Source: Burkholderiaceae bacterium
GTDB lineage: Bacteria; Pseudomonadota; Gammaproteobacteria; Burkholderiales; Burkholderiaceae_B
DNA length: 64,000 nt
NCBI GenBank assembly: GCA_030728985.1
Contig: JANQYI010000013.1
Coordinates: forward strand, 43,648-107,647
Reading direction: 5' to 3'
This document shows positions 19,777-50,872 of this stretch, piece after piece. Both the position numbers and the translations under genes were made by a program. The notes beneath the pieces were generated by a model. It had not been told where the DNA came from and made no database searches. It saw nothing but the letters and a program-made list of their open reading frames with translations. How positions within the stretch are numbered: the stretch's first letter is position 1; every line of letters starts with the position of its first letter.

Positions 19777-20403
19777 ATGTCCTGGCGCGCTCTCATCTTC
19801 TTCCTGTTGCTTGCACTGGTCGCCTCTTGGCAAGGCGGTCGACAACTTGGTCTGTGGCTCGTGGAGCAGGCACCCGAGTCGATCGCCTCGTCTTCCAACG
19901 CAAGGGAGACCCGGGGTCAAGTGCTCGATGCGGATGGCAAGCCCTTGGCGCCCCAACCTCCTCAGCCTCGTATAGACGGTACGCTCGGTGTGCCTCGAGA
20001 AATGGCACCGGTCGAATGGACGATCGAAGCCGTGGTTGCCTCGCGTGCAGATGCAAACTCTTACAAAAAAGAGGGTGATGAAGACGAAGACGAGGGTGAC
20101 GAATCACAAGAAGACAATGATGAGCGCCGCGATCGCGCCAGAGATCCCGACGGTGTTCGCACTGTCGATGTCCGTGCGCCCGCTTCAGGTTCTTCTACAA
20201 CTCGCCCTGTGATAACACCTGCACCACTTTTCACTTGGCGAGACGAGCTTAAAAAAGAACTGACAAAATGCAGCAGTGTGGGATTTTTCAGACGTCCTGG
20301 CTGCATCGATGCGGCACAAACAAAATACTGTGAACCTAACAATGCCTGGGGCAAGGTCGCGGAGTGCCCAGATCGCAGCACGACCAACATTTCGGGCGGC
20401 TAA
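19777..20403 (+). CDS. Hypothetical membrane-anchored/exported protein with acidic linker and C-terminal four-Cys domain
   Basis: N-terminal hydrophobic helix; EGDEDEDEGDESQEDNDE; C...GFFRRPGC...YC...WGKVAECP. Confidence 0.65.
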   Translation: MSWRALIFFLLLALVASWQGGRQLGLWLVEQAPESIASSSNARETRGQVLDADGKPLAPQPPQPRIDGTLGVPREMAPVEWTIEAVVASRADANSYKKEGDEDEDEGDESQEDNDERRDRARDPDGVRTVDVRAPASGSSTTRPVITPAPLFTWRDELKKELTKCSSVGFFRRPGCIDAAQTKYCEPNNAWGKVAECPDRSTTNISGG

Positions 20404-20404
20404 C

Positions 20405-21898
20405 CTAACCTGCTCCCGCCTGGGATTTGCGCAATGGCGCAGTCGGGATTCTCATTTGTTCACGATATTTTGCCACTGTTCGACGGGCAATCGTAATGCC
20501 ATCCTTGTCCAGCAGACTCGCCAACTGACTATCCGAAAAAGGACGCGCCCGGTCTTCTTGACGGATCAGCGCCTGAATGCGAGTCTGAACCGCCGTCGAA
20601 GACGTCGCCTCCCCGCCCTCGGTGGACAACCCCGTACTGAAAAATCTCTTTAACTCCAGCGTCCCGAATGGCGTCACCATATATTTTTGCGTAGTCGCGC
20701 GAGAGATGGTTGATTCATGCATCCCTAGTTCTAGCGCCACATCCTTGAGTGTGAGTGGCCGAACCGCCTCCCAGCCTTTAGTAAAAAACACTTGTTGGTG
20801 CGCCACGATGACTTGAGAGACTCGCAAAATCGTCTCAAAACGTTGCGCAACATTACGTATCATCCAGCGCGCTTCTTGTAACTGCCCATGCAACGCACTA
20901 TTTGCTCCGCCACGCGGACTCCCCAGTGCCTCGGCATACAAGGCGTTGACGCGTAATTTTGGCATCACGGCATCATTGAGCTGAGCCTCCCAGCCCTTAC
21001 GCGTTTTACGGACAATCACATCCGGGACCGCAAAGTCGGCGGCAGGCTTATTCCAAAAACTGCCAGGTCGCGGATTCAGCCGCACAATCAACGCGTGGGC
21101 TCGACGCAATTGATCCGTCTCGCATTGCAGAGCCTCTCGAAGCTTTGTCATATTTCCCGTCGCCAAAATATTGAGGTGCTGCTGACAAAGGCGGCGAGCC
21201 AACACCAAAAGTTCAGCATCTCGGACCTCCGGCAGGCGCTCAGGATCTGCATATTGCAACTGCAAGTCCAAACACTCGGCCAAGTCTCGCGCTCCCACTC
21301 CGGGGGGATCAAGCGACTGCAAAAACTTGAGCGCCATTTGAAAATCCTCTAGCACTACGCCCGACTCTGGCTGCATCCAATCGACGATCTCTTCGAGAGG
21401 AGACGCTAATAAGCCATCATCGTTCAGTTCATCGATGAGCAAACTTACAATCGCCGCGTCCCGTGGACTCAATCGCGTTGTACCCAGCTGACTGAGCAAA
21501 TACTCCCTCAAATTACTCTCGCGAGCCGCTTCAGGTCGATCGGTGAGCTCATCATCCCGAGATTGACGCGTTTCCGTTGAAAACTCCAGGCGTTCCCGCT
21601 CTGCGGGAGCGTCGTACTCTGGGGGAAGGCTGTCTTGCGCCTCAATATCCCCCTGGACTTCATTTAAAGGGGGCTGCGAGCCTTCAAAAACATCGCCCTT
21701 TGCTGTGGTGGCGCCTAAGGGACCGGGGTCCTGTAGGCCTTCTCCCTCTACCTCAAGCATCGGGTTTTCCGCCAGCGCCTTCGCCACTTCGGCCTCCAGG
21801 TCGAGGGTCGACAACTGCAAAAGTCGAAGGGACTGTTGCAGTGCCGGGGTCAGTGTCAAACTCTGACCAAGACGAAGTTCGAGAAAATTGCGAGTCAT
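20405..21898 (-). CDS. rpoN: RNA polymerase sigma-54 factor
   Basis: Region I LTPALQQSLRLLQL, PPGVGAR, HESTISRAT helix-turn-helix, RpoN box ARRTVAKYRE; start set at ATG 21898. Confidence 0.95.
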   Translation of the reverse strand: MTRNFLELRLGQSLTLTPALQQSLRLLQLSTLDLEAEVAKALAENPMLEVEGEGLQDPGPLGATTAKGDVFEGSQPPLNEVQGDIEAQDSLPPEYDAPAERERLEFSTETRQSRDDELTDRPEAARESNLREYLLSQLGTTRLSPRDAAIVSLLIDELNDDGLLASPLEEIVDWMQPESGVVLEDFQMALKFLQSLDPPGVGARDLAECLDLQLQYADPERLPEVRDAELLVLARRLCQQHLNILATGNMTKLREALQCETDQLRRAHALIVRLNPRPGSFWNKPAADFAVPDVIVRKTRKGWEAQLNDAVMPKLRVNALYAEALGSPRGGANSALHGQLQEARWMIRNVAQRFETILRVSQVIVAHQQVFFTKGWEAVRPLTLKDVALELGMHESTISRATTQKYMVTPFGTLELKRFFSTGLSTEGGEATSSTAVQTRIQALIRQEDRARPFSDSQLASLLDKDGITIARRTVAKYREQMRIPTAPLRKSQAGAG

Positions 21899-21914
21899 AG
21901 GTACAATATTTTGC

Positions 21915-22577
21915 ATGATGAACACACCAAACACCGCAAATATCCGAAAAGATGTCTATCTTCTGGGCAATACGTTGTTACGCCTGGGACTTCCACGGCT
22001 CATTATTCGCCTGGTTGTGACGCTCAGTGTGCTGGCACTACTCCTTTATTGCATACAAGGCATTCTTGCACGAGGACGAGGTTGGCTCGAATTTGGTTTA
22101 CATGTTTCTGGCCTGAACGACATCCTTGGCAAAACGGTCATTGAATTCGTCATGCAATACCAAAAGTTCTTTTGGTGGTTAATCGCAGCGTTGCTTGCAC
22201 TATTTGTTCTTAGTTTGATGATGGGCTGGTTACGCAGCAGCATCAAGCGCGGTCGCAGCGCTCTGGTCCCCTTGGGTGAAGTTCGCAAACTCTGTGCGGG
22301 CCTCAGCGTAGAGGGCCTCGATGTTCTAGACTGGGTCTGGCGTGACAAGTCTTCGCCCATTACCGTAGGAAATCTGCAAACGACCCTCTCCCAACTCCGT
22401 ACAGGACGCCAGCGCAAACTCGACCTCGCCCGTGCCCAAAAGCAGGAGTTGGCCTTAGCGCTCAGTCCAAAAGACGCTCTTTCTCCCGACGACTCTTCTG
22501 AACACCCACAAGAAAAGCCGCCCGAAACTGCGCCTCTTGATCGTAGCGGTCACCGCGAACCTACCCTGCTTGCCTAA
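21915..22577 (+). CDS. Hypothetical membrane protein
   Basis: Two hydrophobic segments, C-terminal REPTLL; ATG at 21915/21918 avoids overlap with rpoN. Confidence 0.65.
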   Translation: MMNTPNTANIRKDVYLLGNTLLRLGLPRLIIRLVVTLSVLALLLYCIQGILARGRGWLEFGLHVSGLNDILGKTVIEFVMQYQKFFWWLIAALLALFVLSLMMGWLRSSIKRGRSALVPLGEVRKLCAGLSVEGLDVLDWVWRDKSSPITVGNLQTTLSQLRTGRQRKLDLARAQKQELALALSPKDALSPDDSSEHPQEKPPETAPLDRSGHREPTLLA

Positions 22578-25475: not shown

Positions 25476-25955
25476 ATGTCTGATCTTCTCAACACCGCGC
25501 ACAGCACTCCTTATGCTCGCATTCCTTCCGCAGCCCTAATTCCTGGACTACTAGGATTGCTGCCCTTCTGGGGGCTGGCACTCTCGACGGAGCTCTCGAC
25601 TGGAGTCGATCCGATTCTGGCCCTCATGGCGCTCATCATGTATGGCGCGATTATCCTTAGCTTTGTCGGCGCACTCTGGTGGGGAATAGCCGTACATGCC
25701 CCAGCCTCAACGCTTCGATCAGCGATGTTTGTCTGGAGCGTCGTGCCTGCGTTAATTGGCTGGGCCTCGATCATGACAGAACCCGCGGTGGGCTTGCGGA
25801 TGCTGATTGGCGGCCTGGCACTCCAATGGGTACTTGATGGCTTGCTTAGGCGCAAGGTCTCCAACCTCATCCCGCCGTGGGTGTTCAAACTGCGAACCCT
25901 ACTCACCCTAGGCGCCACTAGCGCTCTAGGCTTTACCTGGTGGCAGCTCAGCTAA
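25476..25955 (+). CDS. DUF3429-like membrane protein
   Basis: GLLPF, YGAIILSFVGALWWG, SVVPALIGW, LRTLLT; start set at ATG 25476. Confidence 0.8.
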   Translation: MSDLLNTAHSTPYARIPSAALIPGLLGLLPFWGLALSTELSTGVDPILALMALIMYGAIILSFVGALWWGIAVHAPASTLRSAMFVWSVVPALIGWASIMTEPAVGLRMLIGGLALQWVLDGLLRRKVSNLIPPWVFKLRTLLTLGATSALGFTWWQLS

Positions 25956-25998
25956 TCAGAGGCATCGCTTTGCGGCGAAAACCAACGTCCTCGACCGC

Positions 25999-26496
25999 TT
26001 AGGCAGCGACTTTCTTTTTGCGGTTTTTTTTCTCTGGGACGGCCAGCATCGTAAAGCGGCAAGTGGATGCACCACACCGGCACTCGTACTGAGCCTTCAG
26101 CTTTTTAGTGAGCTTTTCATCATCGATGACCAGACCATAATCATAGTTGAGCTCCTCACCCCTTTTGATATCGCGCTTGGCAACGATATGGACGCGCTTG
26201 CCTCCCTTGCCCTCGCTACTTTCGCAGTTTGGCTCACAAGAGTGATTGATCCAGCGGGCTTCATTGCCTTGGTCATCCCCGTCAATGACTTTACCCGTAC
26301 TCAGTGAAAAGAAAAACGTATGAAAGGGATCATCGGGATTCGTGGGATGACGACGATCTGCCTCTTTGGCGCTGATCGTTTTACCCCCGTACTCTATGAT
26401 GCGCGTACCCTTGGGAATATTTCGCGCAGCAAAAACACCGTTACCATGCACCGCAGATCGCCTGACGATGTGCCAGGGCTTTTCAATTGTTGTCAT
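25999..26496 (-). CDS. SET-domain protein-lysine methyltransferase
   Basis: SAVHGNGVFA, EYGG, RWINHSCEPNC, ELNYDY, post-SET CRCGASTC; basic C-terminus KKNRKKK. Confidence 0.93.
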   Translation of the reverse strand: MTTIEKPWHIVRRSAVHGNGVFAARNIPKGTRIIEYGGKTISAKEADRRHPTNPDDPFHTFFFSLSTGKVIDGDDQGNEARWINHSCEPNCESSEGKGGKRVHIVAKRDIKRGEELNYDYGLVIDDEKLTKKLKAQYECRCGASTCRFTMLAVPEKKNRKKKVAA

Positions 26497-26514
26497 AAAC
26501 CAAGCGTTAAATAA

Positions 26515-27336
26515 TCAAGTGCGTTTTACACCAAAACAATGCTGTGCCTCAGGAAACTTGCCGCCCCGCACCTCATCCGCATATTGCTGAACCGCGTTTC
26601 GCATGATCGTATCCAAGTCCGCATACCGCTTGACAAACTTCGGCACACGATTACCACTCAGTCCCAGCATGTCGTCGGTTACCAAAATCTGACCATCGCA
26701 AGAGGGCGAGGCGCCAATACCAATGGTGGGAATAGATACCTTGGCGGTGATCTCGGCGCCAAGTGTTTCCGCCACGCCTTCAAGTACAACGCCAAAAGCG
26801 CCTGCCTTTTCGAGCGCTTGGGCATCCGCCAAAATCCGCGCTGCAGAATCAGGTGTTTTCCCCTGGGCTAAATAACCGCCCATCGTATTGACATACTGAG
26901 GCATCAAACCGACATGCGCCAACACAGGAATCCCTCGGCTCACAAGGTACTCTGCCGTCTCGGCCATCACCTCGCCGCCTTCAAGCTTGACTGCATCTGC
27001 ACCTTGGCTCAACAAATAGCCCGCACTGCGAAACGCCTGACCTAACGACTCTTGATAGCTTCCAAAAGGCAGGTCGGCCACGATACAAGCACGTTTAGTG
27101 CCTCGCACAACCGCCGCCGTGTGATGACCGATCTGTTCGAGCGAAATTGACAGGGTGTTGGGCAAGCCATACGCCACCATCGCCGTCGAATCACCAATCA
27201 AAATAAAATCCACATAATCATCGATCACTCTTGCCGTTGGTACGCTATATGCGGTCAATGCGACAATCTTGCGCTGTCCTTTGCAAGCCAACAATTGCGG
27301 GACTGTCATTCGTTTTACTTCTGCCTGCGCGCTCAT
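26515..27336 (-). CDS. panB: 3-methyl-2-oxobutanoate hydroxymethyltransferase
   Basis: LTAY, LIGDS, ADLPFGSY, AVKLEGG, HVGLMPQ, TIGIGA, DGQILV, PKFVK. Confidence 0.95.
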   Translation of the reverse strand: MSAQAEVKRMTVPQLLACKGQRKIVALTAYSVPTARVIDDYVDFILIGDSTAMVAYGLPNTLSISLEQIGHHTAAVVRGTKRACIVADLPFGSYQESLGQAFRSAGYLLSQGADAVKLEGGEVMAETAEYLVSRGIPVLAHVGLMPQYVNTMGGYLAQGKTPDSAARILADAQALEKAGAFGVVLEGVAETLGAEITAKVSIPTIGIGASPSCDGQILVTDDMLGLSGNRVPKFVKRYADLDTIMRNAVQQYADEVRGGKFPEAQHCFGVKRT

Positions 27337-27349
27337 CTTGATTCCCTAT

Positions 27350-30016
27350 TCATTCATCGAGGGCAACGGCCGTCGTTGCCTTCTTAGTCGCCTTTTTTGC
27401 GACTTTTTTGACCGCCTTTTTAACCGCTTTTTTGGCAGCAGTTTTTGTCGCGGTCGTTTTTGTTGCTTTCTTAGCCGCTTTTTTCACAGCCGTTTTAGCG
27501 GCTGTTTTAGTTGCGGTTTTAGCGGTTTTCGCAGGTGTTTTTGATGGTGTTTTGCGGCCCGGTTTTTCAGGGCGGGCTTCAAACTCAAAGCTGACCTTTC
27601 CGCTTTCGCCTCGCGCGAGATACGCCTTGAACTTGCGATTTGTCCGACTGGAAACAAAGCCCTCTAGCAGGTCTGTTTTGCCTGTGGTCAGCAACTTGGA
27701 CATTTGGTCCGCACCAATCTCTTGTTGCAAAATCACCTTGCCGGAACGGAAGTCGCAGTTGCGTTCAGGACCCACGGATTTTTCGCAGATATAACTCATC
27801 CCATGCTCAAACACGCGCGCTGAACATTTTGGACATGCGCCCAGCGGTGCATGTCCGGAAAAATCAACCGGTTCGTTTGACTCCTCATCGCGCTGACCAA
27901 AATCAAATTCTAATTTTGAATCAGGGTCGAGCTTCAAAATCGCGGCAAACGGCCGACCCATTTTGCTGATAAATCCCTGCATGGGACCAATACGCTTATC
28001 CGTAATCAGCGTTTCAACTTCGGCTGGCTCAAACGTTCGACCACCCGGATGTTTGCCAATTGAAAAATCACAGCTCGTGCATGCGTAACGACGATAGTTT
28101 TCTTTGACGACCGCGCCACATTTCGGGCAAGGGGTGGATAGAGTGACATAGTCACCTGGAACCGTATCGCGGTCGTACTCTTTCGCACGCTTGACGATGA
28201 CTTGTGTCATCTGCGCGATTTCACGCATAAACGCTTCACGCTCAAGCTCGCCTTGTTCGATCTGCTGGAGTTTGTGCTCCCACTCTCCCGTCAGCTCCGG
28301 CGAGGTCAACTCCTTGACATCCAGTCCATTGAGCAACGTCATCAACTGACGCGCTTTCGCAGTGGGAACCAAATCCCGGCCTTCACGCCGCAAATAGGTC
28401 TCGTTTAACAAACCTTCGATGATTGAAGCGCGCGTCGCGGGCGTACCGAGACCTCGCGCTGCCATTGCTTGCGCAAATTCGTCATCATCGACAAGCTTGC
28501 CGGCACCCTCCATCGCGGACAGCAACGTACCTTCGTTGTAGCGCGCAGGTGGTTTCGTGACCAAGGCGATTGCGTCGACATCTTCGGTGCGCACGGCCTC
28601 GCCTTCAACGACCGCAACCAGCGTGGCGTCTTCTTCCTGTACCTCGCGGCCGTAGACGGCCAGCCAACCTGGTGAAACAAGCACTTTACCTTCAGTTTTA
28701 AACTGATGCGCCTGCACCGTCGTGGTCCGAGTCGTCATACGGTATTCTGCGGACGGAAAGAAAATCGCCAAGAAGCGCTTGACCACCAAATCGTATAACT
28801 TCGCCTCGGCTTCACTCAATTCTTTAGGAATTTGCAGTGTCGGAATGATCGCAAAGTGATCCGACACTTTCTTGTTATCAAAGATCCTTTTATTGGGTTT
28901 GACCCAACCATTCTTGCTAATCGTTTTAGCGTGTGGCGCCAAATGACGCGCGACACCCGCGCCCTCGGCAATGCCTTCAATCGTGGCGCGCACCGTATTG
29001 ATATAGTCTTCGGGCAAATGCTTGGAGTCCGTTCTTGGGTAGGTCAGCGCCTTGTGCCGCTCATACAGGCTCTGGGCCAATGAAAGCGTTGCCTTGGCGG
29101 AAAATCCGAACCGTCCGTTCGCCTCTCTTTGCAAAGACGTTAAGTCAAACAGCGCAGGCGCAGCCTCGGTTTTGGGTTTGGCAACCTCTGTCACCACGCC
29201 AGGCTGAGCGCGGCATGCTGCCACCACGCTCTTGGCCGCCGCCTCAACCCAAAGTCTCGACTCGTGCTTGGAAGGGTCTTCTGCATCTTTCTTAAACTGG
29301 GGGTCAAACCAACGACCTTCGTATAAGCCTGCCGCGGCGACGAAGGTCGCTCTCACTTCCCAATAGTTGCGTGGCTCAAAACGTCGAATTTTTTCTTCGC
29401 GTTCAAACACAATCGCCAAGGTCGGTGTTTGCACACGGCCTACTGGCGTTTTAAAAAAGCCACCATCCTTGCTATTAAAGGCGGTCATGGCACGGGTGCC
29501 ATTGATGCCCACTAGCCAATCCGCTTCGGCACGCGAGCGCGCAGCCGCCTCGAGGGGCTTCATCGTGGCATCCGGACGCAGATTTTCAAAGGCGTCTCGA
29601 ATCGCGTCCTGTGTCATCGACTGCAACCAAAGGCGTTGCACCGGTTTTTTCTGGCCTGCATATTGTTCGATGTAGCGGAAAATCAGTTCGCCCTCTCGCC
29701 CCGCGTCACACGCATTGATGAGTGCGCTGACATCCTTGCGTTTAATCAGTCGCACCAACATTTTTAGGCGTTCTGCTGACTTTTTGTCGCTCGGGTTCAA
29801 CTCAAACTGTGGCGGAATAACAGGCAGATGCGTGAAGCTCCATTTCCCTTTGACCGGATCGTTGGGTGCGATCAGACTCAGCAAGTGACCGACGCTCGAA
29901 GACAAGACAAATCCGTCACTTTCAAAATAGTCGCCTTCACGCGTAAAGCCTCCTAGTGCCCGTGATATATCAAGGGCAACGGAAGGTTTCTCAGCAATAA
30001 TTAGTGTCTTAGTCAT
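27350..30016 (-). CDS. topB: DNA topoisomerase III (type IA) with zinc-ribbon repeats and Lys/Ala-rich tail
   Basis: IIAEKPSVA, NACDAGREGE, GRVQTPT, TYPRTDS catalytic Tyr, GLGTPATR, CPKC ribbons; start set at ATG 30016. Confidence 0.94.
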   Translation of the reverse strand: MTKTLIIAEKPSVALDISRALGGFTREGDYFESDGFVLSSSVGHLLSLIAPNDPVKGKWSFTHLPVIPPQFELNPSDKKSAERLKMLVRLIKRKDVSALINACDAGREGELIFRYIEQYAGQKKPVQRLWLQSMTQDAIRDAFENLRPDATMKPLEAAARSRAEADWLVGINGTRAMTAFNSKDGGFFKTPVGRVQTPTLAIVFEREEKIRRFEPRNYWEVRATFVAAAGLYEGRWFDPQFKKDAEDPSKHESRLWVEAAAKSVVAACRAQPGVVTEVAKPKTEAAPALFDLTSLQREANGRFGFSAKATLSLAQSLYERHKALTYPRTDSKHLPEDYINTVRATIEGIAEGAGVARHLAPHAKTISKNGWVKPNKRIFDNKKVSDHFAIIPTLQIPKELSEAEAKLYDLVVKRFLAIFFPSAEYRMTTRTTTVQAHQFKTEGKVLVSPGWLAVYGREVQEEDATLVAVVEGEAVRTEDVDAIALVTKPPARYNEGTLLSAMEGAGKLVDDDEFAQAMAARGLGTPATRASIIEGLLNETYLRREGRDLVPTAKARQLMTLLNGLDVKELTSPELTGEWEHKLQQIEQGELEREAFMREIAQMTQVIVKRAKEYDRDTVPGDYVTLSTPCPKCGAVVKENYRRYACTSCDFSIGKHPGGRTFEPAEVETLITDKRIGPMQGFISKMGRPFAAILKLDPDSKLEFDFGQRDEESNEPVDFSGHAPLGACPKCSARVFEHGMSYICEKSVGPERNCDFRSGKVILQQEIGADQMSKLLTTGKTDLLEGFVSSRTNRKFKAYLARGESGKVSFEFEARPEKPGRKTPSKTPAKTAKTATKTAAKTAVKKAAKKATKTTATKTAAKKAVKKAVKKVAKKATKKATTAVALDE
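27353..27565 (-). repeat. Low-complexity KTA/KKA repeat coding a histone-H1-like tail of TopB
   Basis: KPGRKTPSKTPAKTAKTATKTAAKTAVKKAAKKATK...KKAVKKAVKKVAKKATKKATT; 23 Lys in the last 71 aa. Confidence 0.9.
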
Positions 30017-30078
30017 TCTTTTCCAAAAACGGCTCTTATCCGCAACACGCAAAATCCGAACCAACAGAGGGATTCAGT

Positions 30079-31008
30079 TTATTGCGGATCATAAAAGCGG
30101 TGATTAATGCCGTGCAAGTTAGCACGACTCAGGCCTTGCACCCAAACGGGGATCGCCGCGGCCCAAAAGCTCCTAACATCCTCAACAGGCAAAGGGTCAA
30201 AGCCCAAGGCAACCCACGCACGCGTCAAAACACCGAGTGGATCGCTCAAGTCGAGGGCTGCGGCGCCATTTTGTTTAGACAACTTCTGCCCTGCATTATC
30301 CGTCACAAGAGGAACGTGCAGGTACTCTGGCCGAGCCAGCCCCAACATCTCGCCCAACATCACTTGTCTCGCTGTACTACTGAATAAATCTTCGCCACGG
30401 ACCACGTGCGTGACGCCTTGTTCCGCATCGTCGACCACAACCGCTAACTGATAAGCCCAGATCCCGTCTGCACGGCGTAAGACAAAATCTCCCACCATTT
30501 GGCTCACATTCTGCGTCATGGGGCCCAGCCAGCGGTCGTTAAAGACAACCTGCCCCTGCGCTACACGCAGCCTCCAAGAGAGCGCCTGACGTCCTTTTGG
30601 CAGCCCTGAGCGACATGTTCCAGGATAGGGACGCTCCCCATCTGGAAAATGTCCCTGCGTCCGCAACACCGAATCCGCGATTTCACGCCGAGTACACCCG
30701 CAAGGATAAACTAGATTTAACGACAAAAGAGTGTCAAATGCTTGCTGATAGCGATGTAATCGACGAGATTGATACAAAACCTCGCCGTCCCACTGCATCC
30801 CGAGGGCCTTAAGCTGTTGCAAAATGACACGATCTGCCCCAGGTACATTGCGGGGAATATCCAAATCTTCCATTCTGACGCGCCAACCACCATGATGTGC
30901 CTTGGCATCGAGATAGCTCGCTAGCGCTGCCACCGCAGAGCCTGCATGCAACGGTCCACTCGGACTCGGTGCGAAGCGACCAATGTAGGACGACTGAACC
31001 TGAAGCAA
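30079..31008 (-). CDS. gluQ: tRNA glutamyl-Q(34) synthetase
   Basis: [49 protein letters not shown]; short (no anticodon domain); TTG start 31008 inferred. Confidence 0.92.
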
Positions 31009-31009
31009 G

Positions 31010-31468
31010 TCAGTGCAACAGACGGTCACCATCGTCGCGCAGGAGCTCTTCAAGAATCAAATGGTCGACCTCGGATTCCTGACTCCACAACACCATTAAC
31101 GCGATGATTTTGATCTTTTGGAGCGACACTGGACCGTCTGTCGTCGCCATGGCGCGGTCAATCACGATTTCACGCAAAGCCGGAGAGAGCGCCTCTGTCG
31201 TCTCAAGAAAGGTAATGAAACCTATTGCTTGAGCGCCAAGGTGTTGCAGCTCGTAATCCGCGTAGGCACGGAAGCCATCGCCAGGCGTCTGGGCGAGATC
31301 CACACACTGCTCAGTCGTTTCGGCCAAGCCCACCAGCCAACCCAACGCCTCGTCAATATCAGTATGCTCAAAGCCTGCGGCAGCTAGCCGTTTGGCTAGC
31401 ACATCGGCCGAGGGACAGGCCTCGGGGGTGTAGTAATTCTCAAACAGGTAAACCAGGATATCGAACAT
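31010..31468 (-). CDS. smg: Smg (DUF494) protein
   Basis: [12 protein letters not shown]...LAAAGF...EALGWL...[10 protein letters not shown]...LLH. Confidence 0.9.
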
Positions 31469-31493
31469 GGCAGCTACGGCTCCTGTTTTAACC

Positions 31494-31510
31494 GGGGTCT
31501 GTCAGACCCC
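31494..31510. repeat. REP-like palindrome
   Basis: GGGGTCTG-T-CAGACCCC perfect inverted repeat upstream of smg; single copy noticed in window. Confidence 0.45.
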
Positions 31511-31577
31511 TCATGTGAAATAACTTTACCCTTAAAAGTAGAAAACGACAAACGCTATCTTTGATGACCTTAAAAAA

Positions 31578-33596
31578 TCATGCCGCCGCCGTAGGAGTCG
31601 AACGCCTGAAAAACTGCGTCAATACTACGGGTAAGGCCAACGCGAGGCCCGCCAAGCCGCTTTGCCATCCGGGCGCAATAAATAACAAGGCGGCCAAAGC
31701 AAAGGTCCAGCGCTCCCACGCCTTCATGTGCGTCAAAAAATAGCCGGAAAAGGCGGCGGACAAAAACACCAGCCCAACAATGGCTCCGCTTAGCGTGATG
31801 AAAAACTCCTCCCACGTGAACCCTTTGAGGACGAGCAACAAAGAGGGTGAAAAAATAAACACAAATGGCACTAACAGCTTGCTAATGCCCAACTTAAAAG
31901 CCGTATTTCCCGTTTTAAACGGATCACTGCCCGCCATGCCCGCCGCGGCATAGGCGGCCAAGGCAACCGGAGGCGTAAGGTCCGCCAAAATGCCAAAATA
32001 AAACACAAACATATGCGCTGCCAAGGGCTGAACACCCAGCTGCACAAGCGTAGGCGCCGCGACCGCGACCATGATGATGTAGTTCGCTGTCGTCGGAATC
32101 CCGCATCCCATCAAAATACATACAAGACCAGTAATCGCCAGTGCCGCAATCAATGTCAAGGTCTGCATGTTCACCAGAAAATCTGGCAAGATCGCTGCCG
32201 CTGCTCCTGCGATCGCCTGCGAAGCAGCGATCACAATGAAAGACACTTTAAAACCTACACCCGTCAACGTCACCACACCAATCACGATTCCTACCGTTCC
32301 TGCCGCAGCACCGACGGCCAATGCGTACTTGGCCCCGGTTTCAAAGGCATCGTAAAGATCACGCCAACGCAGGCGCTGTACAGGATTGAGTAGACCCACC
32401 ACGATACAACCCGTAATGCCGGCGAACGCTGCAAGATAAGGCGTTCGGCCACTCACGAGAACGCCAATCAAAATCACCAACGGAATGAGTGTTGGCCAGC
32501 GCTTGCGAAAGGACTCTTTTAACTTCGGCATTTCCTCTTCGGTCAAACCACGCAAATTTTGACGCTTGGCCTCGAAATGCACCTGCATGAACATGCCAAA
32601 GAAATACAAAAAAGCCGGGAAAGTCGCCGCCAATACGATATCGCGATAAGGGATATTTAAAAACTCGATCATCAAGAATGCCGCGGCGCCCATGATCGGT
32701 GGCGTGATCTGTCCTCCCGTACTCGACGCCGCCTCAACGCCCGCAGCAAAATGCCGTGGATAACCCACACGAATCATCGCGGGAATCGTCAGTGAGCCCA
32801 CGGTCACCGTGTTGGCGATCGACGAACCTGACAACATACCAAACATGGCCGAACCGAACACAGAGACCTTTGCAGGACCACCCGCATAACGTCCTGCGAT
32901 CGCGGAAGCCACATCAAGAAATAATTGACCCAAACCGATACGCGTAGCTAACACTCCAAACAACACAAAATGAAAAACATACGTCGCCACGACGCCGATT
33001 GCGACACCATAAACCCCTTGGCTGGTGAGATACAGATGGTTCACAATCTGTGACCAATTGTTTCCCGCATGCTTGAGCAAGCCCGGAAACTCACGACCAA
33101 ACATCGCGTAGATCATGAAAACAATTGCAATGATGGGGAGCGGCCAACCCATCGCGCGACGCGTGCCTTCGAGCAAGCCCACGATCAAGATCGTGCCCAT
33201 AAAGACATCAACCTTGTCTGGGTTACCGACCTTGAAGGCCAGCTCCTCGAAAATATAGGGGATATACAAGACCGTAAGCGCCAAGGCCAGCGCGATCAAC
33301 CAATCAAACAAGGGGATACCCCCCGGTGACAGCCACGTCGATTTGGGCTCACGCTTATACGCCCGCTTGTTAAAGCCAAACACCAAAAAAATCAGGCTCA
33401 ACACAAAAGCAAGGTGTACTCCGCGATGTGTCGACTCACGCAACAAACCAAAGCCAGCCGTGTAATAGTGAAAGATGGACAGCGAGACCAACAGGATGGA
33501 AACAATCCAGGTCGCGCTCGCGGCGAGCGGACGAAAGCGTATTTCAGGATCAAATTTTTCTGTTAGTGCTTGGGCTTTCTTTTCATCTAATTGCAT
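31578..33596 (-). CDS. TAXI-TRAP transporter fused permease (4TM/12TM)
   Basis: GGPAKVSV, SGSSIAN, ASSTGGQITPPIMGAAAF, GIPTTANYI, DLTPPVALAAYAAAG. Confidence 0.92.
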   Translation of the reverse strand: MQLDEKKAQALTEKFDPEIRFRPLAASATWIVSILLVSLSIFHYYTAGFGLLRESTHRGVHLAFVLSLIFLVFGFNKRAYKREPKSTWLSPGGIPLFDWLIALALALTVLYIPYIFEELAFKVGNPDKVDVFMGTILIVGLLEGTRRAMGWPLPIIAIVFMIYAMFGREFPGLLKHAGNNWSQIVNHLYLTSQGVYGVAIGVVATYVFHFVLFGVLATRIGLGQLFLDVASAIAGRYAGGPAKVSVFGSAMFGMLSGSSIANTVTVGSLTIPAMIRVGYPRHFAAGVEAASSTGGQITPPIMGAAAFLMIEFLNIPYRDIVLAATFPAFLYFFGMFMQVHFEAKRQNLRGLTEEEMPKLKESFRKRWPTLIPLVILIGVLVSGRTPYLAAFAGITGCIVVGLLNPVQRLRWRDLYDAFETGAKYALAVGAAAGTVGIVIGVVTLTGVGFKVSFIVIAASQAIAGAAAAILPDFLVNMQTLTLIAALAITGLVCILMGCGIPTTANYIIMVAVAAPTLVQLGVQPLAAHMFVFYFGILADLTPPVALAAYAAAGMAGSDPFKTGNTAFKLGISKLLVPFVFIFSPSLLLVLKGFTWEEFFITLSGAIVGLVFLSAAFSGYFLTHMKAWERWTFALAALLFIAPGWQSGLAGLALALPVVLTQFFRRSTPTAAA

Positions 33597-45857: not shown

Positions 45858-49435
<3,578 letters not shown>

Positions 49436-49438
49436 GAA

Positions 49439-50872
49439 TTATCCCTTTAGAGTTTGTTCGAGCACATGCAGCGTATGATTAAGGTCTGCTTGTTTTGCAC
49501 GCAAGTCGGTAATTTTTCTAACCGCGTGTAAAACTGTTGTGTGATCCCGCCCACCAAACATATCTCCAATATCTGGCAAGCTTTTTTGCGTCAGTTCTTT
49601 TGCAAGGTACATCGCAACCTGCCGCGGCATTGCAATGTTGGCAGGTCGACGTTTCGAATACATGTCGGCCACCTTAATTTTGTAGAAATCAGCGACTGTT
49701 TTCTGAATGTTTTCCACCGTGACCTGTCCGCTGGAGACGGACAGCAAGTCTTTCAAGGCATCTTTACAAATATCGACATTTGCGACATCGCGGCCATGAA
49801 ACCTTGCGTATGCCACGACTTTTTTTAGTGCGCCTTCTAGCTCTCTGACGTTGCTTCTCAGGTGTTTTGCAATGAAAAAGGCGACTTCTTCAGGCATGGT
49901 AAGCCCTTCTTGCTCGGCTTTTCGCAACAATATAGCGACCCGCATTTCAAGCTCAGGTGGCTCAATCGCTACCGTTAAGCCTGAATCAAACCTCGATATC
50001 AACCGACTATCGATACCCGCCAGTTCTTTTGGGTAAGTATCACTTGTAATAATGATCTGTTTTCGTTGGGCGACCATCGCCTCAAATGCATAAAAGAATT
50101 CTTCTTGTGTTCGATTTTTTCCTGAAAAAAACTGAATATCATCGATCAGCAGAAGATCTAAAGAATGGTAATAACGTTTGAAGTCATCAAACGCCTTGCG
50201 TTGATAGGCTTTTACAACGTCCGATACGTATTGGTCCGCGTGAACATACCGCACTCTCACACCCTGGCCTGCCGTGACCATTGCATTTCCAATTGCGTGA
50301 ATGAGGTGCGTTTTCCCAAGTCCTACACCACCATATAAAAACAGTGGGTTGTAAGAAGTTCCGGGATTTTCAGCGACTTGAATCGCGGCGGCACGGGCAA
50401 GTTGATTCGCCTTACCCGTTACAAAATTATCAAAGGTCAAATCCACATTTAGTCTGGATTTATCGTCAACAGCCGTGTTGACCACTGCCGCGCGTATTGG
50501 TTCGCGCGTCGCATCCGTGATCTGAGTGTCTTGTAACTTCTCACTCAGCATGGGGGCAACTTGATCGGAAGTGTGCGTGTTCTGGACTGCCCTCAATCCA
50601 CGAGTTTGCTCGTTCGCTTGTATTGATAATTCAAACATCACCTGTACTGGTTTTTCAAACCACTTCGAGGCGAACGCTTCTATTTGTTGTGAGAAGTTTT
50701 TCCTTACCCATTCCAGTTTAAATCTGTTTGGCGCAGACACGCGCAGCAACGCCTTTGTTTCATCAAAGGCGAGGGGAACCAGTGGACGTATCCATGCACT
50801 GATTTGCTGAGGGGGAAAGTCCTGCTCTAAATGAGCGACGCAGGATTGCCAAAACTCGTTCATGTGACTCAC
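49439..50872 (-). CDS. dnaA: Chromosomal replication initiator DnaA
   Basis: [43 protein letters not shown]; start may be 50863. Confidence 0.98.

What the first reader, a model, noticed from the sequence alone, without database searches (positions are those of the whole stretch)
25999..30016. Candidate bacterial 'chromatin' module: SET lysine methyltransferase co-encoded with a topoisomerase III bearing a histone-H1-like tail
Seen: topB, panB and a SET gene are co-oriented with 13- and 18-bp gaps. TopB ends in a 71-aa tail with 23 Lys built from KTA/KKA repeats. The SET protein has intact NHSCxPN, ELxYDY and post-SET CxC motifs. Known: SET domains methylate lysines in basic tails; SET genes near type IA topoisomerases have been noted in comparative genomics; H1-like tails bind DNA. 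Inference: the SET enzyme may methylate the TopB tail to tune DNA binding, decatenation or supercoiling. That would be an endogenous role in an apparently free-living sulfur oxidiser rather than a host-targeting effector role. I know of no demonstration of this substrate relationship.
Basis: partly seen in the sequence, partly recalled or inferred. Interest (0 to 1): 0.8.

Follow-up and report, generated by a model that had tools for sequence, protein, structure and literature searches.

The report
Lysine methyltransferase paired with topoisomerase III
A histone-methyltransferase-like (SET) gene travels with the topoisomerase III gene through several families of mostly free-living bacteria and likely methylates lysine-repeat tails on the cell's own DNA-binding proteins, possibly including that topoisomerase, which would give such enzymes a testable job outside infection.

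Summary
Observation confirmed: topB-panB-SET, gaps 13 and 18 bp, 71-aa tail with 23 Lys, intact SET and zinc-knuckle motifs. TopB is the only type IA topoisomerase found in 5 of 5 genus genomes. No SctV/FlhA export gate was found in 4 of 5, so the SET is probably not an effector here. Linkage is old: SET lies downstream of topB within 16 kb in 56 of 65 SET-bearing family genomes, and head-to-head in 36 of 80 named relatives; panB is a lineage passenger. Within the family all 65 SET-positive genomes have long tails and 11 of 14 SET-negative ones do not. Against a TopB-specific module: only 3 well-supported independent contrasts (p 0.5), no correlation outside the family (p 0.20), adjacency with a 1-Lys tail in one family, both genes near oriC, and five other lysine-repeat proteins in the genome. 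A model docks tail lysines in the active site (0.92; best control 0.41), without a consistent register. Best reading: a housekeeping methyltransferase for lysine-repeat tails, with TopB one plausible substrate; untested. The scan noted the head-to-head form twice before on other DNA.

The parts
27350..30016 (-). topB, type IA topoisomerase of the PRK08173 (Topo III) family, 888 aa, predicted active Tyr326, two Toprim_Crpt repeats; sole type IA enzyme found in the genome
27350..27565 (-). Lys/Ala/Thr-repeat C-terminal tail of TopB (71 aa, 23 K) ending in acidic residues (..ALDE); lysine-repeat type, likely a DNA-binding/processivity element and candidate methyl acceptor
   Evidence: family comparison; model
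26515..27336 (-). panB, ketopantoate hydroxymethyltransferase; passenger between topB and SET in this genus and a sister genus, absent from the 10 family genomes where SET directly follows topB
25999..26496 (-). Single-domain SET protein with post-SET zinc knuckle (C87, C139, C141, C146 invariant), catalytic Y120 and Y36 invariant, Y118 at the F/Y switch, short basic C-terminus; only SET gene found in the genome
30079..31468 (-). smg (DUF494) and gluQ, co-oriented upstream genes (gluQ-topB gap 62 bp); remnant of the dprA-smg-topoisomerase block; context, not part of the proposed module
45861..50872 (-). gyrB-dnaN-dnaA: places the locus in the replication-origin region, a confounder for the linkage

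Best explanation
The SET gene encodes an intact, vertically kept enzyme that likely acts as a housekeeping SAM-dependent lysine methyltransferase on the cell's own Lys/Ala-repeat (KK/AKK) tails, most likely those of the H1-like nucleoid protein and of its long-time neighbour TopB, the sole type IA topoisomerase. Shown here: the intact catalytic and zinc residues, the single copy, the retention without a detected injection system, the old linkage to topB, and within-family co-loss with the long tail. Inferred from Streptomyces TopA: the TopB tail holds the enzyme on DNA and raises processivity. Inferred from the Y at the F/Y switch and from BtSET: mono- or di-methylation. Methylation keeps the positive charge, so its effect would be modest tuning of DNA dwell time, blocking of acetylation, or protection from proteolysis, not an on/off switch (inference). 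No single target lysine is predicted; many repeat lysines would qualify. panB is an inserted passenger. I put the chance that the TopB tail is methylated by this enzyme in vivo at all at about 0.45.
For: Residues for SAM, lysine channel and Zn are invariant in 27 homologues and align with KMT2A (E 3e-27). SET is in 65 of 79 family genomes, single-copy in 64. No export gate was found in G000, G021, G011 or G010 (G021 has a VirB4). Linkage: tandem in the family (56 of 65 within 16 kb, 10 directly adjacent in 7 genera); head-to-head under 300 bp in 36 of 80 named loci, still adjacent 940 kb from dnaA in G129; convergent in f6; directly behind gyrB in f6 and g77. Tail has 11 or more K in 65 of 65 SET-positive and 3 of 14 SET-negative family genomes, with no discordant independent pair. 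AKK per Lys in the H1-like protein: median 0.37 in 39 SET-positive loci, 0.06 in 9 SET-negative; lower in the three SET-negative lineages that have a SET-positive sister, including both that kept the TopB tail (post hoc motif, biased sample). Model: score 0.92, best of 3 controls 0.41 (mark reached by 116 of 157 solved and 2 of 215 mismatched pairs; counts hold only roughly here), tail residues 53-61 in the groove with K870 against F63/Y120; runs agree in at least 0% of contacts, partner pLDDT at least 49; may be memory of solved SET-histone complexes. Precedents: cpnSET methylates Hc1, Go1-SET methylates MC1-alpha, BaSET methylates H1 (PMC3980110); lysine repeats of TopA and HupB/HupS (PMC5714199, PMC11229371).
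Against: No methylation was measured. Only 3 independent pairs lie on well-supported branches (sign test median p 0.5); SET-negative genomes are smaller (median 2.15 against about 3.9 Mb) and size correlates with tail Lys (rho 0.41). Outside the family, tail Lys does not differ (32 SET-positive median 10.5; 42 SET-negative median 7.5; p 0.20) and 12 of 42 SET-negative genomes have 11 or more K (two of these counts include an extra folded repeat). f6 keeps adjacency with a 1-Lys tail. Both genes are origin-proximal (topB within 200 kb of dnaA in 50 of 59, SET in 28 of 33). 13 Burkholderiaceae loci show no topB within the fetched flank. SET-positive G285 has no AKK in either repeat protein; no H1-like gene was found in SET-positive G231, G272, G262 or G237. 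The model's controls were not lysine-rich peptides. NUE did not methylate Hc1 (PMC3980110).
Confidence: 0.5

Rival explanations
1. Passive synteny: SET and topB are both old origin-region genes that stay near each other by default. The SET methylates something unrelated to lysine repeats (a translation or metabolic protein, itself, or a partner tied to its other constant neighbours birA or acetolactate synthase). The TopB tail is an unmodified or acetylation-controlled processivity element.
For: Origin proximity of both genes. 46 of 56 linked family genomes have 0.5-15.7 kb of inserts, often on the opposite strand, so co-transcription is not kept. birA follows SET in nearly all head-to-head loci and an acetolactate synthase gene is divergent from SET in 11 named loci. 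No tail correlation outside the family. Linkage is broken in G234, G244, G283 and G296, where SET stays within 135 kb of dnaA.
Against: Direct adjacency recurs in three geometries in different families and survives a move 940 kb from dnaA. SET is closer to topB than to dnaA in 24 of 32. No SET-positive family genome lacks the long tail.
Confidence: 0.27
2. Strict version of the first reader's idea: a dedicated module in which the TopB tail is the main substrate and methylation tunes supercoiling or decatenation.
For: Old linkage; co-loss of long tail and SET in 4 of 6 SET-negative lineages of the family tree; G231 and G272 have SET directly behind topB, AKK-rich tails and no H1-like gene found; even short tails in head-to-head loci keep a KK pair; the model docks the tail.
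Against: f6 adjacency with a 1-Lys tail; tail kept after SET loss in 2 lineages; distance versus tail Lys rho 0.05; long tails without SET in other families; the H1-like protein carries the same repeats at higher density (23 AKK).
Confidence: 0.15
3. The SET is primarily a secreted, host- or predator-targeting histone methyltransferase like BtSET, LegAS4 or NUE.
For: Reviews report BtSET as a type III effector that mono- and di-methylates H3K4 (PMC3980110, PMC7819608, PMC10117894). Paraburkholderia and Bordetella homologues are 63-74% identical to this protein. It has a basic, NLS-like C-terminus.
Against: No SctV/FlhA found in 4 of 5 genus genomes (three are 99-100% complete), no VipB in 5 of 5, no VirB4 in 4 of 5. 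Core-genome position and presence in 24 of 24 genus genomes. Far below the LegAS4 cut-off (52 against 550 bits). The family's 0.8-0.9 Mb genomes lack it.
Confidence: 0.08

Closest known systems
Chlamydial set: cpnSET/NUE with histone H1-like Hc1/Hc2 and TopA-SWIB (Murata 2007 and Pennini 2010 as reviewed in PMC3980110; PMC12445093)
   Same: Small bacterial SET protein co-occurring with an H1-like protein, a SWIB protein and a type IA topoisomerase; cpnSET methylates Hc1.
   Different: Here the organism is free-living with no type III gate found, the topoisomerase is Topo III-type with its own lysine-repeat tail, SET and topB are genomically linked, and SWIB is a separate gene in this family (fused to TopB in Comamonadaceae-type loci).
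Actinobacterial TopA with C-terminal lysine repeats; HupB/HupS LR domains (PMC5714199, PMC11229371)
   Same: Type IA topoisomerase ending in K/A repeats plus acidic last residues; repeats bind DNA and give processivity; LR domains of HupB are methylated and acetylated.
   Different: Different topoisomerase family (PRK08173 with Toprim_Crpt repeats); the passages read report no methylation of a topoisomerase tail and no linked bacterial SET writer.
BtSET of Burkholderia and the Bordetella LegAS4-like SET (Li 2013, seen only through reviews)
   Same: Probably the same orthologous group (inferred from 63-74% identity to Paraburkholderia and Bordetella homologues; BtSET itself not fetched); Tyr at the F/Y switch fits mono/di-methylation.
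   Different: Described as secreted nucleolar effectors; here conserved in genomes without a detected type III system.
Go1-SET of Methanosarcina mazei (via PMC3980110)
   Same: Prokaryotic SET with an endogenous DNA-binding substrate (MC1-alpha).
   Different: Archaeal, different substrate, no topoisomerase linkage reported in the text read.

Membership tests
SET-domain protein lysine methyltransferases | SET profile match with NHxCxPN and ELxYDY motifs and catalytic Tyr | tested here: met
   PF00856 93 bits (cut-off 22.4); N84, H85, Y120, Y36 invariant in 27 homologues
SET-domain protein lysine methyltransferases | Post-SET Zn knuckle (four Cys) | tested here: met
   C87, C139, C141, C146 invariant and aligned with KMT2A
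SET-domain protein lysine methyltransferases | SAM-dependent methyl transfer to a protein lysine | not testable with these tools
   needs an assay
DNA topoisomerase III, PRK08173 type | Profile over cut-off, Toprim + Topoisom_bac + Toprim_Crpt repeats | tested here: met
   1488 against 1058 bits
TopB-SWIB fusion (PRK14724 type) | C-terminal SWIB domain on the topoisomerase | tested here: not met
   profile matched only to position 919 of 988; the single SWIB hit is a separate gene on contig C6
Lysine-repeat (LR) topoisomerase tails | Repeated KK doublets in an Ala-rich tail with acidic terminus | tested here: met
   23 K in 71 aa, ends in DE; feature as described in PMC5714199 abstract
Lysine-repeat (LR) topoisomerase tails | Tail raises DNA binding and processivity | not testable with these tools
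   shown for Streptomyces TopA only
Secreted SET nucleomodulins (BtSET, LegAS4, NUE) | A type III or IV delivery system in the same genome | tested here: not met
   PF00771 0 hits in G000, G021, G011, G010; PF03135 0 in G000, G011, G010, G250; PF05943 0 of 5; G000 is 86.7% complete; Dot/Icm-type systems not searched
Secreted SET nucleomodulins (BtSET, LegAS4, NUE) | LegAS4/AnkI full-length profile | tested here: not met
   52 against 550 bits
Chlamydia-like SET/H1/SWIB/topoisomerase set | All four component types in one genome | tested here: met
   SET, H1-like (PF07382 44 bits over cut-off 40; NF038053 52 bits, below cut-off 80), SWIB, type IA topoisomerase
Chlamydia-like SET/H1/SWIB/topoisomerase set | SET methylates the H1-like protein | not testable with these tools
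   only indirect: AKK density trend
Operon topB-panB-SET | One transcript across both junctions | tested here: inconclusive
   RNA-library contigs bridge both junctions in 4 of 4 runs of one study, but contigs are unstranded and also bridged a divergent junction in 3 of 4 runs

The most novel reading that the evidence does not exclude
Burkholderiales carry an endogenous, chromatin-like lysine-methylation code. One conserved SET writer marks AKK/KK repeats on the sole type IA topoisomerase and on the H1-like nucleoid protein, tuning topoisomerase processivity and nucleoid compaction together. The 'effector' SETs of pathogenic relatives would be this housekeeping enzyme moonlighting.
Probability: 0.3. 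Interest if true: 0.8.

Novelty: new variant of a known kind. Interest (0 to 1): 0.52.

Why it matters
Bacterial SET proteins are studied almost only as host-directed effectors, yet they are common in free-living species, where their targets are an open question (PMC3980110). This locus offers named candidate substrates, natural variants (tail long, short or SWIB-fused; SET present or lost) and harmless culturable relatives, so the question becomes directly testable. A positive result would, as far as my searches reach, be the first methylation of a bacterial topoisomerase by its own SET enzyme and would reframe the BtSET group as housekeeping in origin.

Tried and rejected
Promoter and terminator scan of 25500-31700: 1 promoter-like site (shuffles 3.6) and 8 terminator-like (7.5); uninformative. 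panB as a functional member: rejected, since it is absent where SET directly follows topB. Tail length tracking SET distance: rejected (rho 0.05, n 57). Order-wide SET-tail correlation: not found (p 0.20; family means rho 0.26, p 0.20, n 25). My early idea that the H1-like gene is lost together with SET, suggested by the HC2 profile search (only 2 weak hits in 14 SET-negative genomes, one being the TopB tail), was rejected: H1-like ORFs lie next to yggT in SET-negative G291, G293, G257, G247, G214, G268 and G279. SWIB as a co-lost partner: present in 70 of 79 family genomes, including 8 of 14 SET-negative ones, and its N-terminal K/A extension was short in the 30 loci read. Earlier-findings look-up by sequence found nothing. 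Three primary papers were not held. No fold prediction, atlas or large protein-database search was run because both families are unambiguous.
Full report
Observation. The three genes are as described: topB 30016..27350, panB 27336..26515 and SET 26496..25999 on the minus strand, gaps 13 and 18 bp, a 71-aa tail with 23 Lys, and NHSCEPN, ELNYDY and CRC motifs. TopB passes the PRK08173 Topo III cut-off, panB passes TIGR00222, SET matches PF00856. soxAXB at the window start support a sulfur oxidiser. The window also holds gyrB-dnaN-dnaA, gidAB and parAB, so the locus is in the origin region. Closest named homologues point to the freshwater genus Zwartia in Alcaligenaceae (90% identity, L390); this is an inference from record titles.

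The enzyme. In 27 homologues H17, G18, G20, Y36, F63, N84, H85, Y120 and the four zinc cysteines are invariant. The best solved relative is KMT2A (E 3e-27). Y118 occupies the F/Y switch position, which by recalled SET chemistry favours mono- or di-methylation. It is the only SET found in G000 and is present in 24 of 24 other genus genomes. SctV/FlhA was found in 1 of 5 genus genomes, VipB in 0 of 5 and VirB4 in 1 of 5; G011 and G010 (99% complete) have none of the three. An effector role is therefore unlikely here.

The topoisomerase. It is the only type IA enzyme found in 5 of 5 genus genomes, so it probably does the relaxing work of TopA (inference). Streptomyces TopA has lysine repeats ending in acidic residues that stabilise the DNA complex and give processivity (PMC5714199, abstract and one passage). 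The tail here has the same anatomy, so it has a sufficient known function without any SET.

Linkage. Genus: topB-panB-SET in 23 of 24 loci, one at a contig edge; tails of 69-124 aa with 18-36 K. Family: of 80 sampled genomes 79 had a TopB match and 65 of these 79 a SET. SET is downstream and co-oriented within 16 kb in 56 of 65: directly adjacent in 10 (7 genera) and separated by 0.5-15.7 kb in 46. Two are near but inverted, four are 73-277 kb away and three are on other contigs. The inserts are transporters, acyl-CoA genes and an acetolactate synthase divergent from SET. panB was seen between the genes in 4 genomes of two sister genera (only fetched flanks were checked) and just upstream of SET in G299, L389 and L393. 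Named relatives: of the best 80 loci (from a capped set of 600), 36 have topB head-to-head within 300 bp, 15 have it upstream in tandem, 18 lack it despite 8 kb or more of upstream flank (13 Burkholderiaceae), and 11 are too short. In family f6 the order is dnaA-dnaN-gyrB-SET facing topB, and in genus g77 SET follows gyrB. Confounder: topB lies within 200 kb of dnaA in 50 of 59 genomes where both share a contig, SET in 28 of 33. SET is nearer topB than dnaA in 24 of 32, and one pair stays adjacent 940 kb away (some chromosome lengths rounded). The linkage is real and old, but partly explicable by shared position.

Does the tail track SET? Within the family all 65 SET-positive genomes have 11 or more tail lysines; 11 of 14 SET-negative ones have 26 aa or fewer and 8 K or fewer, and 3 keep 13-18 K. 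On a tree of the 243-aa TopB core this is at least 6 changes of SET state and 4 of tail state. Only 3 independent pairs lie on well-supported branches: 1-2 concordant, none discordant, p 0.5. SET-negative genomes are smaller and size correlates with tail Lys (rho 0.41). Outside the family, among 81 genomes (3 more were not searched for SET; 7 with only weak SET hits were set aside), 32 SET-positive have a median of 10.5 K and 42 SET-negative 7.5 (p 0.20). 12 of 42 have long basic tails without SET, two of them counted with an extra folded repeat. f6 keeps adjacency with a 1-Lys tail. Seven of 8 Sphaerotilaceae loci with a visible tail have 17-22 aa and 4-6 K.

Other candidate substrates. G000 encodes five more K/A-rich proteins: a 128-aa H1-like protein behind nrdAB (53 K, 23 AKK), an H1-SWIB protein, a carboxymuconolactone-decarboxylase-like protein with a tail, and two I recognised by eye as RpoD and a PBP7-like protein. 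H1-like ORFs persist in SET-negative genomes but with fewer AKK per Lys (median 0.06 in 9 loci against 0.37 in 39; 6 of 54 loci had no such ORF). Sisters: G291 0/27 against G255 13/50; G293 6/31 and G257 5/32 (cut at the locus edge) against G230 29/64; G247 8/85 against G246 12/55. Exception: SET-positive G285, 0/50. I chose the motif after seeing the data, the SET-positive set is biased to close relatives, and two SET-negative rows are fragments, so this is a lead. Conversely no H1-like gene was found in four SET-positive genomes, two of which have SET directly behind topB.

Model. SET with SAH and Zn plus the 76-aa tail scored 0.92 against a best control of 0.41 (mark reached by 116 of 157 solved and 2 of 215 mismatched pairs; counts only rough here). 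In the best run K870 sits against F63 and Y120. Runs agree in at least 0% of contacts and partner pLDDT is at least 49. This shows a groove that accepts such peptides, probably by likeness to solved SET-histone complexes; it does not single out TopB.

Transcription. In 4 of 4 lake metatranscriptome runs of one study, single contigs bridge both junctions (for example 25490-30355 in X1). The contigs are unstranded and bridged one divergent junction in 3 of 4 runs, so co-transcription is compatible, not shown.

Literature. Read: PMC3980110 parts 1-3 of 5; passages of PMC7819608, PMC10117894, PMC11229371, PMC12445093, PMC2650627, PMC9369019, PMC4453540 and PMC3417536. Murata 2007, Li 2013, Manzur 2005, Mujtaba 2013 and Aravind 2011 were seen only through these reviews. 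I recall that Aravind 2011 notes bacterial SET genes beside SWIB and topoisomerase genes; it was not held, so the linkage may already be in print. Searches listed no paper whose title or abstract start reports SET-topB linkage in Burkholderiales or methylation of a bacterial topoisomerase by a SET enzyme; most subscription journals are outside the library and no supplements were opened.

Verdict. A real, conserved gene association with a probably endogenous enzyme. Most likely (0.5) a housekeeping methyltransferase for lysine-repeat tails, TopB among the plausible targets; passive origin-region synteny 0.27; TopB-dedicated module 0.15; effector 0.08. All parts are of known kinds; the combination and its test are new enough for interest 0.52.

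Noticed in passing
TopB tails of family genomes, e.g. L177, L216, L226, L232 (handles G260, G232, G281, G253); also L108 (G085): 35 of 79 family TopB tails (21 genera) end in an acidic patch plus PF or AF, typically DDDPPF. This resembles the SSB C-terminal tip DDDIPF (G000's own SSB ends DMDDDIPF; motif described in the listing of PMC5872125). It may let TopB mimic or compete with SSB for partner proteins. The window's own TopB lacks it.
   Followed up: partly
L263:1846-4782 (G029) and L264:2620-5611 (G112): In family f6 and genus g77 the SET gene follows dnaA-dnaN-gyrB directly, so it neighbours both topoisomerase types.
   Followed up: partly
L266:552-959 (G000 contig C6): Stand-alone SWIB protein with a 60-aa H1-like N-terminal extension; it matches the last 130 positions of the TopB-SWIB fusion profile PRK14724. 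The extension was short in the 30 other family loci read.
   Followed up: partly
L081, L082, L087 and named loci such as L422, L428, L430, L438: TopB-SWIB fusions are common in Comamonadaceae-type genomes, whereas PMC12445093 states SWIB-containing TopA is not found beyond Chlamydia; the fused enzyme here is Topo III-type.
   Followed up: partly
L268:1873-2397 (G000 contig C28): Carboxymuconolactone-decarboxylase-like protein with an H1-like K/A tail, unusual for a metabolic enzyme.
   Followed up: no
G294:C7:135550-136329 (L187): Two SET domains in tandem in one 324-aa frame; the only such case among the family genomes searched.
   Followed up: no
window 31010-31468: smg is present, but the gene upstream of it is a TRAP transporter rather than dprA, unlike the dprA-smg-topB order in L401 and L408; whether dprA lies elsewhere in G000 was not checked.
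   Followed up: no
window 19777-20403 and 21888-22577: Two ORFs (208 and 229 aa) flanking rpoN with no Pfam match.
   Followed up: no
L135:1373-1999 and L145:1228-1839: Some SET homologues carry their own K/A-rich C-terminal extensions, possible self-methylation sites.
   Followed up: no
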